Origin: an uncultured Acidobacteriota bacterium
GTDB lineage: Bacteria > Acidobacteriota > Thermoanaerobaculia > UBA5066 > Gp7-AA6
Assembly: GCA_963708395.1 (NCBI GenBank)
Contig: CAVPSG010000002.1
Coordinates: 1,167 to 65,166, forward strand
Direction of reading: 5' to 3'
Length of the DNA stretch: 64,000 bases
Part shown: positions 1-2,936 of the stretch, in pieces
Layout: each line of letters begins with the position of its first letter
Position numbering within the stretch: the stretch's first letter is position 1
The notes under the pieces: model-generated
What the model saw: only the letters and a program-made list of their open reading frames with translations
What the model was told of the DNA's origin: nothing
The model's database searches: none
Position numbers and translations under genes: made by a program

Positions 1-1272
1 TAGGTGCTTCGTCAATCGTGCAATGGCAAACGCATTGGACACTCGATACGCCCCACGGGGATCCCCGAAGCTGAAGTACCCAGCCCAGCCACGCCGATAC
101 TGATTGACTTGCTTCACCAGTTCCGTCAGCGGCACAAATGCCCGCTGGTGACTGGTCAGCTCCCGCAGTTCGTTTCGATGCTTCTCCATCGCCTTGTTCG
201 ACGGCACTGCCGTGAGATACCGCCGGTGTCGTCCATGGCGATCCCAATCGTAGCGAAAGGTGTAGCCCAAGAAATCCAGCGAGGCTTCCTCGCACGGTGA
301 AAGGGCAATCACTCGGGTCTTCGTCCGATTGATCGTGAGCCCAAGCCACCCCTCCACGATGTGCTCCACCCACGTCGTGATCCGAGGACTGATGTATCGC
401 GCCATGATGATGAAGTCATCCGCATACCGCACCAGTCGAGCTTTCGCCCATACGCCCGGACCTTTGGATCGGTGAAACACGACATCAAACCAGTGGAGAT
501 AGAGGTTGGCCAGCAGCGGTGAAATGACTCCCCCTTGTGGCGTCCCTTGGTGTGGTCGACTGCGCTTCGGTCGACCGTCTTCGTCACGCTCTTCCACCAC
601 CGCGTTGAGCCAGAGGCGGAGCAGATGGAGGACCGACCGGTCCGCGATCCGCCGCTCGACACACTTCAACAACTGGTCATGCGGGATCGTGTCGAAGTAC
701 GCTTGCATGTCCGCGTCGTAGACGGCCGTGTACCCAGCCCGCACATTCTGCTCGATCACGCGTAACGCATCGGCTGCGCTCCGCGCCGGTCGATAGCCAT
801 AGGAGCAGTTCAGAAAATCTGCCTCGACAATCGGCTCCAGAATCAACTTCGCCGCCGTCTGCACCACTCGGTCCCGAATCGTTGGAATCCCGAGGGGCCG
901 CATGCGTCCGTCTGGCTTGGGAATGAGTACCCGCAGCACCGCGTCTGGACGATACGTCTTGGTCCGCAACTCCTGGTGCAACGTCTCCACCAAGAGCTCC
1001 GGTCCCCCAGGCGAGTTGGCGATCTGATCGATCGTCACCCCATCCACCCCAGGTGCGCCCTCGTGACCGGCCACCTGGGCCCAGGCCGCCCAGAGCACGT
1101 CGCGCCGATGGATCCGGTCGTACACCGCATAAAACCGGAACGTCGGCTCTCGCTTTGCCTTCAAGTAGAGCTTCTGTCTCAGCGTGAAGAGTTTCCCAGG
1201 CAGCCCGTCCCGATTTACCGCAAAGGCCTCGGGCAGTTCTCCCTGATCGTCCGTAGTAGCCAGGTTCGGCAA
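1..1272 (-). CDS. ltrA: Group II intron reverse transcriptase/maturase, partial at 3' end
   Basis: Translated by hand from a TTG at 1272 preceded by GAGGAG. Motifs: KLYLKAKREPTFRFYAVYD, APGVDG, PKPDGRMRPLGIPTIRDRVVQ, GTPQGGVISPLLANLYLH, RYADDF, DFLGY. The frame is open to position 1. Confidence 0.96.
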   Translation of the reverse strand, partial: MPNLATTDDQGELPEAFAVNRDGLPGKLFTLRQKLYLKAKREPTFRFYAVYDRIHRRDVLWAAWAQVAGHEGAPGVDGVTIDQIANSPGGPELLVETLHQELRTKTYRPDAVLRVLIPKPDGRMRPLGIPTIRDRVVQTAAKLILEPIVEADFLNCSYGYRPARSAADALRVIEQNVRAGYTAVYDADMQAYFDTIPHDQLLKCVERRIADRSVLHLLRLWLNAVVEERDEDGRPKRSRPHQGTPQGGVISPLLANLYLHWFDVVFHRSKGPGVWAKARLVRYADDFIIMARYISPRITTWVEHIVEGWLGLTINRTKTRVIALSPCEEASLDFLGYTFRYDWDRHGRHRRYLTAVPSNKAMEKHRNELRELTSHQRAFVPLTELVKQVNQYRRGWAGYFSFGDPRGAYRVSNAFAIARLTKHL

Positions 1273-1749
1273 GCGGCTCTCCTCGTCTCTGACGACTGCA
1301 TTCTGCTGGTCGGGGTCCTTCGCTCCCCCGGCATTACCCGGCTTCCACGCTACTCTGACCCCGTCCGATTCCCGACCACGGCGCCGCACGAGTTATGGAT
1401 TCCTCATGCTGCGTTCGACCACGACGTCGCCCCGGTCGGGCTTCCCAGGTTCCTCGTTCTCTCTCTCAGTGCGCGCCGTCCCCTCCCACCCCGGAGAGCC
1501 GAACGACTGCATACGCCTGTGCTTCATCGCTCGTGCTGGCTTCACCATCTCTGGCAGGCTGGCCACTCTCATCGTTGCGTTTCGAGGCCGAACTGGGTTC
1601 GCTTGCGCTACGGCTCACCCTGTGCGCCTTCCGAGGCTTCGCCGCCGTGATTGCTCACCGTCGACGCTCAGTCGGCTACATGTTTCACAGGCCCTTCACA
1701 TGGTGACCTCCTTCCGGTCACAAGAGAGACCAGGCTTATCCTGGCGCAC
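1..1749 (-). mobile_element. Group II intron, 5' portion (3' end lies beyond the left window edge)
   Basis: The minus strand starts GTGCGCCAGGATAAG at 1749, the canonical GUGYG 5' end. About 480 nt of intron-like non-coding sequence follows, including GGAAGCCGGGTAATGCCGGGGGAGCGAAGGACCCC, and then the RT ORF. Confidence 0.93.
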
Positions 1750-1875
1750 CAGAGACCGCAGAGAGCCGCAGAGAACAACAGATCGTGATGCTGCAATGGC
1801 CGATGCCGACTTGATGCGAAGTTCAATTCTTATTCTCTCTGTTTTTCTCTGCGTTTCTCTGCGTCCCTGCGGTCA
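1750..1875. repeat. Long imperfect palindrome built from ~10-nt CGCAGAGA units (5' exon of the intron)
   Basis: The left arm cagagaccgcagagagccgcagagaacaacaga (1750-1782) is complementary to the right arm tctctctgtttttctctgcgtttctctgcgtccctgcggt (1834-1873). Confidence 0.8.
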
Positions 1876-1904
1876 ATTGTTTTTTGGTGGATTTTTGCGA
1901 ACTG

Positions 1905-2936
1905 CTAATCATATTTCTCTCGCAGCCTGCTCCTGAGCGCGTGCTGCATCGACTTGGCGTAGTTGCGCGCGGCCGCGGCCGCCGCCACATCCTGCTTTCG
2001 CTCGAGAAACGCCAACTCGCGTCGCAAATGACGCCAGCTCTCGAACCGCTCGGCCTCGAGTGCCCCGCTCGCGAGCGCCGCGAGCACCGCGCAACCCGGC
2101 TCCGTCTCGTGCGCGCAGTCGCGGAAGCGGCACTCCTCCGCCAACACGACGATGTCGCGAAACGTTTCGTCGAGACCCTCGGCGGCGGACCAGAGCTGGA
2201 GCTCGCGCATCCCCGGCGTGTCGATCAGCGACGCGCCGCTCGGAAGGTCGATCAGCTCGCGGTGCGTCGTGGTGTGGCGGCCCGCGCCGTCGTCGCGCAG
2301 CTCGCCGACGCGCTGGCGATCTTCGCCGAGCAGCGCGTTGACCAACGTCGACTTGCCGGCGCCCGACGATCCGAGAAGCACCGCGGTGATTCCGGGCGCG
2401 AGCATGGCGACGATGGCATCGAGCCCGGCGCCGGTGAGGGTCGACACCGCGAGCACGTCGACGCCCAGCGCGACGGAACGGACGTCGCGAACGATGTCGT
2501 CGGTGCTCTCGACGAGATCCGATTTCGTGAGCACCACGACCGGCATCGCGCCGCTCTCCCATGCGAGCGCGAGATAGCGCTCGATGCGGCGAAGGTTGAC
2601 GTCGCCGGGCAGCGCCGCGGCGATAAACGCGATGTCGACGTTGGCCGCGACAATCTGCGCCGTCGTCACGTCGCCCGCGGTCTTTCGCCGAAAGGCGCCG
2701 TGACGCGGGCCGACGCTTCGGATCGTCGCGACGGGTGGATCGCCGCGCGCCACCGACGCGAGAACCCAGTCGCCAACCGCCGGAAAATCGTCGGGCGACA
2801 GCGCGGTGTGCCGAAAGCGGCCCGGCAGATGCGCGTCCGCATCGCCGGTTGGAAATCGTAGTACGTAGCGATCACGGTGCTGCGAAACCACGCGCGCCGT
2901 CTCGAGCGGCGCGTTGCCAGCTGCTTCGATGTTCAT
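1905..2936 (-). CDS. rsgA: Ribosome small subunit-dependent GTPase A
   Basis: Circularly permuted GTPase motifs TKSD, GSSGAGKST, GRHTTT and DTPGMREL, plus a C-terminal CRFRDCAHETEPGC zinc finger. Confidence 0.96.
   Translation of the reverse strand: MNIEAAGNAPLETARVVSQHRDRYVLRFPTGDADAHLPGRFRHTALSPDDFPAVGDWVLASVARGDPPVATIRSVGPRHGAFRRKTAGDVTTAQIVAANVDIAFIAAALPGDVNLRRIERYLALAWESGAMPVVVLTKSDLVESTDDIVRDVRSVALGVDVLAVSTLTGAGLDAIVAMLAPGITAVLLGSSGAGKSTLVNALLGEDRQRVGELRDDGAGRHTTTHRELIDLPSGASLIDTPGMRELQLWSAAEGLDETFRDIVVLAEECRFRDCAHETEPGCAVLAALASGALEAERFESWRHLRRELAFLERKQDVAAAAAARNYAKSMQHALRSRLREKYD

What the first reader, a model, noticed from the sequence alone, without database searches (positions are those of the whole stretch)
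1548..1875. Group II intron inserted 4 nt inside the end of a long palindromic repeat
Seen: on the intron strand the 5' exon is a hairpin. Its arm accgcagggacgcagagaaacgcagagaa pairs with ttctctgcggctctctgcggtctctg|GTGCG, and only the last CGGT of the 3' arm is missing. A CAGAGA complementary to the last six exon bases lies in the intron at 1548-1553 (weak EBS1 candidate). Established: some group II introns home to hairpins such as terminators and attC sites. Inference: this intron may use a dispersed CGCAGAGA repeat family as a multi-copy neutral landing pad.
Basis: partly seen in the sequence, partly recalled or inferred. Interest (0 to 1): 0.62.

Follow-up and report, generated by a model that had tools for sequence, protein, structure and literature searches.

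The report
Group II intron homing into tandem-unit palindromes
A complete, probably still mobile self-splicing retroelement (a class F-type group II intron) sits four bases inside the end of a long DNA palindrome built from short tandem units that spell the intron's own target, and about 80 relatives do the same, so this intron lineage uses such multi-copy palindromes as harmless landing sites.

Summary
Extending the contig leftwards shows a 1952-nt intron (minus strand). Its 3' exon begins CGGT, which completes the palindrome.

The CAGAGA at 1548-1553 is the real EBS1. Its loop covaries with the last 5-6 exon bases across 17 different EBS1 variants in about 60 related introns. An EBS3 (window 1486) and a weaker EBS2 candidate (1576-1580) were also placed.

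The intron is IIB-like, of the class E/F type, not IIC. Domain V has a 5-nt loop, the reverse transcriptase has no endonuclease domain, and EBS1 is full length.

The hairpin is one member of a family of "tandem-unit palindromes". The family is not dispersed in this assembly. However, the first ~35-38 kb of the contig are compositionally foreign, so that absence says little. The same family is dispersed in other Gemmatimonadota genomes, with 113 to 920 tandem-unit matches per genome. An analogous family in a delta-proteobacterial MAG has 49 exact sites, and eight 100%-identical introns (seven full, one truncated) sit in non-identical copies of it.

The best reading is base-pair-guided retrohoming into a pre-existing, multi-copy, intergenic repeat. 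Origin of the palindromes themselves remains unexplained.

The parts
1..1749 (-). Group II intron, the part inside the window. This is intron nt 1-1749 of 1952. The last 203 nt, with domains V and VI, lie left of the window at C2:964-1166.
   Evidence: GTGCG start at 1749. RF02005 D1-D4 model 62.4 bits at 1479-1711. RF00029 D5-D6 52.9 bits ends at C2:964. Length 1952 nt.
1..1389 (-). Intron-encoded reverse transcriptase/maturase ORF. It is 492 codons from a GTG start; relatives suggest a 453-aa form. It runs 88 nt beyond the window's left end. There is no endonuclease domain.
   Evidence: RVT_1 109.5 bits and GIIM 39.7 bits. TIGR04416 353.6 bits against a cut-off of 300. YADD motif present. 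The best solved relatives are IIC-type RTs at 175-185 bits.
1548..1553 (-). EBS1 (5'-CAGAGA-3'), which pairs with IBS1 UCUCUG.
   Evidence: Lies in a hairpin loop of RF02005. Seventeen distinct EBS1 5-mers covary with the exon end. 86.5% of cells are paired in register -6..-1, against 67% when shuffled (maximum 71.6%), and other registers sit at background.
1576..1580 (-). Candidate EBS2 (5'-ACGCA-3'), which pairs with IBS2 UGCG at exon -11..-8.
   Evidence: Compensatory examples in relatives: ACACT/AGTGT 5 of 5 bp, ACTCA/TGAGC and AAGC-/TGCTT 4 bp each. Register -11 gives 51% paired against 43.5% shuffled (maximum 47.9%), the best of five registers. This is weaker than EBS1.
1486..1486 (-). 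EBS3 (G), which pairs with the first 3'-exon base (C).
   Evidence: Best-covarying column of 442. It is G with +1 C in 28 of 28 introns, A with +1 T in 16 of 18 (the other two are G-U), and T with +1 A in 1 of 1. All 47 can pair.
1750..1755 (-). IBS1, the last six bases of the 5' exon (UCUCUG).
1756..1760 (-). Candidate IBS2 (UGCGG, exon -11..-7). It consists of the G|YG junction of the preceding tandem unit.
   Evidence: The EBS2 column also covaries with the +1 base (0.83), which shows the periodicity of the units.
1750..1775 (-). 3' arm of the palindrome, 26 of 30 nt: three tandem ~10-nt units TTCTCTGCGG CTCTCTGCGG TCTCTG. The missing CGGT follows the intron at C2:963-960.
   Evidence: It aligns unit for unit with empty elements of genome G093.
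1776..1844 (-). Central region (loop) of the palindrome. It is AT-rich: GC is 46% over the 150-nt window at window 1760-1909, which covers the hairpin, against about 70% beyond.
1845..1873 (-). 5' arm of the palindrome: ACCGCAGGGA CGCAGAGAAA CGCAGAGAA, the reverse-complement units.
   Evidence: It aligns with G093 elements. A near-identical arm start, ACCGCAGGGACGCAG, lies beside a related intron remnant in L018.
1905..2936 (-). Upstream gene in the same orientation (my reading from the sequence: an RsgA-like GTPase; no family scan was run). Its stop codon lies 31 nt before the palindrome.
   Evidence: ORF. Homologues of 48-50% identity in two same-order genomes. No hit at E<=1e-40 in 11 same-genus genomes.

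Best explanation
This is a full-length group II intron without an endonuclease domain. It is IIB-like, of the class E/F type, and most probably belongs to the core class F group that contains Ge.ur.I1.

It entered its present site by retrohoming guided by base pairing. EBS1 (CAGAGA) pairs with the last six exon bases. A candidate EBS2 (ACGCA) pairs with the G|YG junction of the preceding unit. EBS3 (G) pairs with the first 3'-exon base.

The target is the outermost pair of tandem ~10-nt units in the 3' arm of a 'tandem-unit palindrome'. This is a REP/REPIN-like intergenic element whose two arms are inverted arrays of about three units. Because the last unit ends 4 nt before the outer end of the palindrome, the intron sits 4 nt inside the stem.

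The whole intron lineage is specialised on such elements, and each sublineage's EBS1 matches the unit of the palindrome family it lives in. The elements are multi-copy and intergenic, so they offer many harmless sites.

Shown here:
- the anatomy and exact boundaries of the intron;
- EBS/IBS covariation;
- identical introns in non-identical palindromes, with many empty copies, in another genome;
- membership of this hairpin in a family that is dispersed elsewhere.

Inferred:
- that this copy is active;
- that, lacking an endonuclease, it primes cDNA synthesis at replication forks as other endonuclease-less introns do;
- that it is transcribed by read-through from the upstream GTPase gene.
For: Boundaries and intactness.

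Class. Domain V has the 5-nt loop GAAAC, a hallmark of IIE/IIF according to PMC3753933. About 470 nt of ribozyme lie outside the ORF. There is no endonuclease domain.

The published class F intron Ge.ur.I1-1 has reiterated IBS1 copies 9 and 19 nt upstream, which act as alternative 5' splice sites. Loci L073/L074 carry the same AUUCG|UGUCA units.

Covariation: EBS1, EBS3 47 of 47, EBS2.

Reiterated targets: 63 extra IBS1 copies against 3.8 expected. The base at -1 is paired in 33 of 41 folded empty sites.

Dispersed families:
- G041 has 49 exact 13-mers against 3 in the control and 8 introns that are 100% identical. Its hairpins are intergenic, and their loops differ or are only related.
- G092/G093/G094/G095 have 920/113/217/521 tandem-unit matches against 81/10/61/46 in controls, but only 1-3 RT matches per assembly, i.e. 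1-2 introns each.
- The own arms align with G093 elements, including the GGTAAAA end.

Pre-existence of the hairpins:
- G042 keeps 24 TTTCG sites without the cognate intron.
- The last unit differs among the identical G041 introns (L015, L017).
Against: In this assembly the palindrome is a singleton: 22 matches against 31 in the control, and one CGCAGAGA cluster. The 'multi-copy' part therefore rests on other genomes.

Genome G096, which holds the closest identifiable relative of this intron, also has very few such palindromes: 17 against 17.

Class F membership could not be tested against reference sequences.

EBS2 support is modest.

An assembler can join contigs through a repeated intron. 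The CGGT that follows the intron could therefore in principle come from another family member rather than from this very site.
Confidence: 0.8

Rival explanations
1. The tandem units, and perhaps the whole palindromes, are made by the intron itself. Introns excised at upstream alternative 5' splice sites would carry one or two units along. Repeated insertion and loss on both strands would then grow a palindrome outward while keeping its outer ends.
For: - Each unit is exactly IBS1 plus the start of the 3' exon.
- The array motif tracks EBS1 over 17 variants and several phyla, even among related genomes: TTTCG in G041, CTCTG in G042, ATCCTG in G057/G059.
- Ge.ur.I1-1 does use upstream IBS1 copies as 5' splice sites in vitro and forms circles that contain the extra unit.
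- In low-copy genomes the few palindromes lie next to introns (own locus; L018 in G096).
Against: - Eight 100%-identical introns in G041 sit in hairpins with different loops. The unit next to the intron differs in two of them (L015, L017), so it was not carried along.
- Empty palindromes greatly outnumber assembled introns: 49 exact sites against 8 introns in G041, and 113-920 tandem-unit matches against 1-2 introns in G092-G095.
- G042 keeps the family without the cognate intron.
- Subsets of hairpins share related loops, so they were copied as whole elements.
- Unit transduction cannot make the inverted arm.
Confidence: 0.08
2. The intron behaves like a class C (IIC) intron. It recognises the DNA hairpin as a structure, as with terminators or attC sites, and the sequence of the arms is incidental.
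For: - The site is a strong hairpin directly downstream of a gene.
- The RT has no endonuclease domain, and its best solved relatives are IIC RTs.
- The base at -1 is paired in 33 of 41 folded empty sites.
Against: - The domain V loop is of the IIE/IIF type.
- EBS1 is 6 bp and there is an EBS2 candidate, whereas IIC introns lack part of EBS1 and all of EBS2.
- The insertion is inside the stem, so IBS1/IBS2 would be hidden by the hairpin rather than following it.
- 29 of 63 related sites have no inverted IBS1 copy within 160 nt, while tandem direct copies are common.
- Target sequence covaries tightly with EBS1 and EBS3.
Confidence: 0.07
3. A one-off ectopic insertion into an ordinary terminator of the upstream GTPase gene, with the palindrome being a local peculiarity.
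For: This assembly has a single intron and a single palindrome.
Against: - The arms are three tandem copies of the intron's own target on both strands, which chance does not give.
- The hairpin is preceded and followed by A-runs (aaaaaa..., ...GGTAAAA), not followed by a U-run.
- The same architecture recurs in dozens of related loci and in dispersed families elsewhere.
Confidence: 0.02

Closest known systems
[quoted passage not shown] 2013 (PMC3753933)
   Same: - Small IIB-like ribozyme with a 5-nt domain V loop.
- RT/maturase without an endonuclease domain.
- EBS1 and EBS2 in domain I.
- A 5' exon with reiterated IBS1 copies about 9-10 nt apart. Related loci L073/L074 carry the very AUUCG|UGUCA units reported for Ge.ur.I1-1.
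   Different: In the paper the reiterated IBS1 copies were treated as a cause of alternative 5' splicing of one intron in vitro. Here they turn out to be the units of a dispersed palindromic repeat that the whole lineage targets. The RT of this copy is only about 54% identical to the AUUCG-type relatives. Class membership could not be checked against reference sequences.
Class C (IIC) group II introns: B.h.I1 (after terminators) and S.ma.I2 (attC sites)
   Same: - No endonuclease domain.
- Intergenic sites associated with DNA hairpins.
- Many sites per genome.
- Neutral location downstream of genes.
   Different: IIC introns read the stem-loop as a structure plus a 3-4-nt IBS1 that follows it, and they have no EBS2. 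This intron has a 6-bp EBS1, EBS3 and a candidate EBS2. It inserts inside the 3' arm, and its ribozyme has IIE/IIF features.
Introns that home by base pairing into other multi-copy elements: RmInt1 in ISRm2011-2, nested introns of Methanosarcina acetivorans, TeI3/TeI4 of Thermosynechococcus
   Same: Base-pair-guided retrohoming into a repeated, dispensable sequence that gives the intron a perpetual supply of safe sites.
   Different: The target here is not an IS or another intron. It is a short non-coding palindrome built from tandem units, and EBS1 has diversified to follow at least 17 unit variants.
REP/BIME/REPIN elements (repetitive extragenic palindromes mobilised by RAYT Y1 transposases). 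IS elements and 2 of 9 P. putida group II intron copies are REP-associated (PMC1525189)
   Same: - Short intergenic palindromes.
- Tens to hundreds of copies per genome.
- Conserved arms and variable centre.
- Used as landing sites by mobile elements.
   Different: - The arms are arrays of about three 8-11-nt tandem units.
- There is no GTAG head.
- The flanks are T-run/A-run (TTTTTAC...GTAAAAA).
- A link to a Y1 transposase was not found: G093 has the family but no Y1_Tnp hit.

Membership tests
Group II intron (mobile, ORF-containing) | 5' GUGYG, domain V with catalytic triad and bulge, domain VI with bulged A, 3' AY | tested here: met
   GUGCG at window 1749. RF00029 matches 77 of 77 positions at 52.9 bits, ending ...CUAC at C2:964. 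The AGC triad and a bulged A 7 nt from the end were read from the sequence.
Group II intron (mobile, ORF-containing) | RT/maturase ORF in domain IV | tested here: met
   TIGR04416 at 353.6 bits against a cut-off of 300. RVT_1 plus GIIM. YADD motif present.
Group II intron (mobile, ORF-containing) | EBS1-IBS1 and EBS3-IBS3 pairings that covary | tested here: met
Bacterial class E/F (IIB-like) introns | 5-nt loop in domain V instead of a GNRA tetraloop | tested here: met
   The loop is GAAAC between GCGG and CCGC. The criterion comes from PMC3753933.
Bacterial class E/F (IIB-like) introns | Small ribozyme (450-700 nt without the ORF) and an IEP without an endonuclease domain | tested here: met
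   357 nt before the ORF and 113 nt after it. Only the RVT_1 and GIIM domains are found.
Bacterial class E/F (IIB-like) introns | Alpha' motif in a terminal loop of DId3 and an extra bulge in DId3 | not tested
   No full domain I model was built.
Core class F (Ge.ur.I1, So.us.I2, Pe.th.I2) | RT/X-domain phylogeny groups it with reference class F ORFs | not testable with these tools
   No reference intron sequences could be fetched. The only link is indirect: relatives L073/L074 reproduce the published Ge.ur.I1-1 exon units.
Class C (IIC) introns | Shortened EBS1, no EBS2; insertion just after a stem-loop (terminator or attC) | tested here: not met
   EBS1 is 6 bp and there is an EBS2 candidate. 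The insertion lies 4 nt inside the stem. The domain V loop is of the E/F type.
REP/REPIN-like dispersed palindromes (for the hairpin) | Many intergenic copies per genome with conserved inverted arms | tested here: inconclusive
   Not met in this assembly: 22 against 31 in the control. The contig end is foreign, however. Met in G093, G092, G094 and G095, and for the analogous family in G041-G043, G057 and G058.
REP/REPIN-like dispersed palindromes (for the hairpin) | Cognate RAYT (Y1 transposase) and GTAG-type head | tested here: inconclusive
   Y1_Tnp hits occur in G041, G042, G092, G094 and G095, but none in G093 or G096. No adjacency was examined. The elements have no GTAG head.

The most novel reading that the evidence does not exclude
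The tandem-unit palindromes are not an independent host repeat but a by-product of the intron lineage. Introns excised at upstream alternative 5' splice sites (as shown in vitro for Ge.ur.I1-1) would carry target units to new sites. Repeated insertion and loss on both strands would then build palindromes out of the intron's own target. In that case a retroelement would manufacture its own landing pads.
Probability: 0.08. Interest if true: 0.85.

Novelty: new variant of a known kind. Interest (0 to 1): 0.6.

Why it matters
The 2015 review of group II intron evolution lists three target strategies for bacterial introns: specific homing sites, intrinsic terminators and attC sites. It assigns the last two to class C only.

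Here an IIB-like class E/F-type lineage with about 80 sampled members is specialised on a fourth kind of target. This target is a short intergenic palindrome built from tandem units. The intron's guide sequences have diversified into at least 17 variants that follow the repeat unit of each host's family.

This matters in three ways:
- It explains why Ge.ur.I1-1 has several IBS1 copies and splices at alternative sites.
- It gives a natural system in which retargeting of an intron by EBS changes can be studied.
- It draws attention to an apparently undescribed, very abundant class of repeats (113 to 920 tandem-unit matches per genome in Gemmatimonadota genomes) whose origin and mobility are unknown.

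For this particular window it is one well-preserved example, sitting on a contig end that probably does not belong to the rest of the genome.

Tried and rejected
- Orthologous empty site in relatives. DNA searches found no close match in 40 relatives. The upstream GTPase has no counterpart at E<=1e-40 in 11 same-genus genomes. In the two distant homologous loci the downstream gene differs, so there is no comparable site.
- Dispersed family in the own genome. Exact and relaxed motif scans, and a generic scan for tandem arrays with an inverted partner, found only this locus or nothing. The generic scan was too strict to detect even the own hairpin, so it is uninformative.
- Integron/attC idea for the clustered hairpins of G041. 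Rejected: neighbouring genes have mixed orientation and sizes of 100-800 aa, and I saw no RYYYAAC/GTTRRRY ends when reading the hairpins.
- Intrinsic terminator. Rejected: the elements are preceded by T-runs and followed by A-runs on both strands.
- RAYT link. A Y1_Tnp scan of eight genomes was inconclusive.
- Literature. Six full-text searches found no description of class E/F introns homing to tandem-unit palindromes. Simon et al. 2008 could not be retrieved.
- A fixed-offset rule for EBS1 mis-registers loops that are 1 nt longer. The alignment-based count is the one to trust.

Full report
**1. The observation**

The intron lies on the minus strand. It starts GTGCG at window 1749. Its domain I-IV region matches Rfam RF02005 at 62.4 bits (1479-1711). 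An RT/maturase ORF runs off the left end of the window.

The window is C2:1167-65166 of a three-contig assembly, so the 1166 bases to the left could be read. Rfam's domain V/VI model RF00029 matches end to end (52.9 bits) and stops at C2:964...CUACUCUAC. The intron is therefore 1952 nt long.

The joined exons fold into one long hairpin of -69.9 kcal/mol (z = -6.5). Its 5' arm is ACCGCAGGGA CGCAGAGAAA CGCAGAGAA. Its 3' arm is TTCTCTGCGG CTCTCTGCGG TCTCTG^CGGT, where ^ marks the insertion point, 4 nt from the end of the stem.

**2. The intron**

The ORF is a group II RT/maturase: TIGR04416 at 353.6 bits, with RVT_1 and GIIM domains, a YADD motif and no endonuclease domain.

Domain V has an AGC triad and the 5-nt loop GAAAC. 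According to Nagy et al. 2013 this loop is a hallmark of the IIE/IIF lineages, as are a small ribozyme and an IIB-like organisation. About 470 nt of ribozyme lie outside the ORF.

The intron is therefore not class C, although the best solved RT relatives are IIC enzymes.

**3. Relatives and exon-binding sites**

Relatives were collected as follows:
- The protein search found thousands of RT relatives. Most sit on contigs of about 2 kb, as expected for multi-copy repeats.
- 18 genome loci and 80 metagenome loci were fetched.
- Intron ends were set by the conserved GTGCG/GAGCG start and the D5...CTACTCTAC end.

The domain I hairpin loop that carries CAGAGA in this copy changes in step with the last 5-6 bases of the 5' exon. 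Examples are CAGAG/ctctg, CGGAG/ctccg, CGAAT/attcg, CGAAA/tttcg, CGGAT/atccg, CAGAT/atctg, CTGAC/gtcag, CTAAG/cttag, CAAAG/ctttg, CGTAA/ttacg and CTCAG/ctgag.
- In the alignment-based count, 86.5% of cells pair in register -6..-1.
- Shuffled pairings give 67% (maximum 71.6%).
- Shifted registers sit at background.

A scan of all 442 alignment columns against the first 3'-exon base picks out one position, intron nt 264 (window 1486). It is G with C, A with T and T with A, and all 47 of 47 can pair. This is EBS3.

A candidate EBS2 (ACGCA, window 1580-1576) pairs with exon -11..-8. It shows clear compensatory cases but weaker overall statistics: 51% paired against 43.5% shuffled, the best of five registers.

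**4. The targets are tandem units, often palindromic**

In nearly all relatives the 5' exon ends in two to four tandem units of 8-11 nt. Each unit consists of 'YG(N)' plus the IBS1.
- 63 extra exact IBS1 copies lie in -50..-6 of 63 distinct flanks, against 3.8 expected.
- In 34 of 63 flanks the reverse complement also lies upstream.
- In 33 of 41 folded empty sites the insertion point is inside a stem.
- The EBS2 column covaries with the +1 base (0.83). This is a direct read-out of the periodicity, because IBS2 is the G|YG junction of the preceding unit.
- Sometimes units continue into the 3' exon (L044, L057, L039, L095).
- Two loci have two introns exactly one unit apart (L011, L069).

This matches what Nagy et al. 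saw for the class F intron Ge.ur.I1-1. It has IBS1 copies 9 and 19 nt upstream that act as alternative 5' splice sites. L073/L074 carry the same AUUCG|UGUCA units.

**5. Are the palindromes a dispersed family?**

*In this assembly: no.*
- CGCAGAGA occurs 119 times against about 164 expected, with a single cluster.
- A degenerate two-unit pattern gives 22 hits against 31 in the control.
- The intron is single-copy here and absent from 60 relatives, except for fragments in one.

*In other genomes: yes.* The table gives counts of the two-unit pattern and RT matches per assembly; some RT matches are pieces of one split intron, so each assembly holds 1-2 introns.

| Genome | Two-unit matches | Control | RT matches |
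|---|---|---|---|
| G092 (Longimicrobium) | 920 | 81 | 1 |
| G095 (Longimicrobium) | 521 | 46 | 3 |
| G094 (Longimicrobium) | 217 | 61 | 2 |
| G093 (Gemmatimonadaceae) | 113 | 10 | 2 |

- Matches mostly come as inverted pairs.
- G093 elements read TTTTTAC-C(G/A)CAGAGGA x3 - variable centre of 25-170 nt - CCTCTG(C/T)G x3 - GTAAAAA. The arms of the own hairpin align with them unit for unit, including the GGTAAAA end.

*The delta-proteobacterial MAG G041:*
- It has 49 exact TTTCGTGCTTTCG sites against 3 in the control.
- It has seven full and one truncated intron copy, all 100% identical.
- The hairpins are intergenic, between genes of mixed orientation.
- Empty copies read ...TTTCGtgcTTTCG^tgat, with the same 3-4-nt offset from the outer end.
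- Subsets share related loops, so they were copied as whole elements.

The only related intron in G042 has EBS1 CAGAG and sits in a CTCTG array.

**6. Why the own hairpin is a singleton**

The first 30 kb of C2 have the lowest tetranucleotide correlation of all 149 30-kb windows of the assembly (0.945 against a median of 0.996). The shift back to normal lies at about 35 kb. A REP-type 16-mer occurs 5-6 times in the first 38 kb and never in the other 4.47 Mb.

This agrees with an earlier first-stage note that suspected a junction at window ~37066. The contig end is either a mis-join or a recent island. Either way, the absence of further palindromes in the remaining 4.47 Mb says little about the native host.

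The closest identifiable relative of this intron is an internally deleted remnant in a Gemmatimonadaceae MAG (84-85% nt identity). It lies at a different locus, beside a hairpin whose 5' arm starts with the same ACCGCAGGGACGCAG. That genome too has only a few such elements. Another relative with 88% RT identity sits 14 nt inside a CTCCG-unit palindrome, 71 nt downstream of a called HhH-GPD gene.

**7. Mechanism**

The simplest account is sequence-guided retrohoming into pre-existing palindromes:
- Identical introns occupy non-identical hairpins.
- Empty sites abound.
- The unit next to the intron differs between identical copies.
- The family survives without its intron.

The requirement for EBS2 plus EBS1 explains why the outermost pair of tandem units is used. 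It therefore also explains why the intron ends up a few bases inside the stem.

The alternative that the intron builds its own arrays, by carrying units from alternative 5' splice sites, is attractive. The reason is the perfect match between unit and target across phyla. The G041 data speak against it, and it cannot produce the inverted arm. I give it about 8%.

IIC-like recognition of the hairpin as a structure is unlikely. The binding sites lie inside the stem, and nearly half of the related sites show no inverted partner.

**8. What remains open**

- What the tandem-unit palindromes are and how they spread. A Y1-transposase scan was inconclusive.
- Whether this copy splices.
- Formal class assignment.

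Earlier notes of this scan describe similar cases in other genomes: class F-type introns in REP-like repeats, and 'tandem-repeat-stemmed hairpins'. I treated these as leads only.

Noticed in passing
window 1-37000 (C2:1-~38000): The first ~35-38 kb of the contig differ in composition from the rest of the 4.5-Mb assembly. Its first 30 kb have the lowest tetranucleotide correlation of 149 windows. A REP-type 16-mer (ATCCCGAGCGCAGCGA) occurs 5-6 times here and 0 times elsewhere. The region is probably a mis-join or a recent island.
   Followed up: partly
window 1905-2936: The RsgA-like GTPase upstream of the palindrome has no counterpart at E<=1e-40 in 11 same-genus genomes. It does have homologues of 48-50% identity in two genomes of another family of the same order. 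This is consistent with the foreign contig end.
   Followed up: partly
L113-L132, L009, L015 (genome G041): Downstream of many TTTCG hairpins lies a second short tandem motif, (T)CTGT(C/A)T(T/C)C, repeated 3-5 times (for example ttctgtcttctgtctgctacattctatc). It may be part of the same dispersed element or a second target array.
   Followed up: no
L011:33-2051 and L069: Two introns in tandem are separated by exactly one target unit (tgttcttcg, tgtctctg). Adjacent units of one array were therefore both occupied.
   Followed up: partly
L018:2270-2770 (Gemmatimonadaceae MAG G096): An internally deleted remnant (about 400 nt) of the same intron lineage (84-85% nt identity) keeps both ends. It lies beside a decayed hairpin with a near-identical 5' arm, downstream of a different gene.
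   Followed up: partly
L133:1140-3220 (genome G042): A related intron starts GTACG instead of GTGCG and has about 110 extra nt in domain VI. It sits in a CTCTG array, although its genome carries 24 TTTCG-type hairpins.
   Followed up: no
G000 C3:547051-547209: Tandem copies of a ~80-nt GC-rich palindromic unit (cacagagaatgtaggggcggccctcgcggccgccc...) turned up in the motif scan. It is a different repeat family of the main genome.
   Followed up: no
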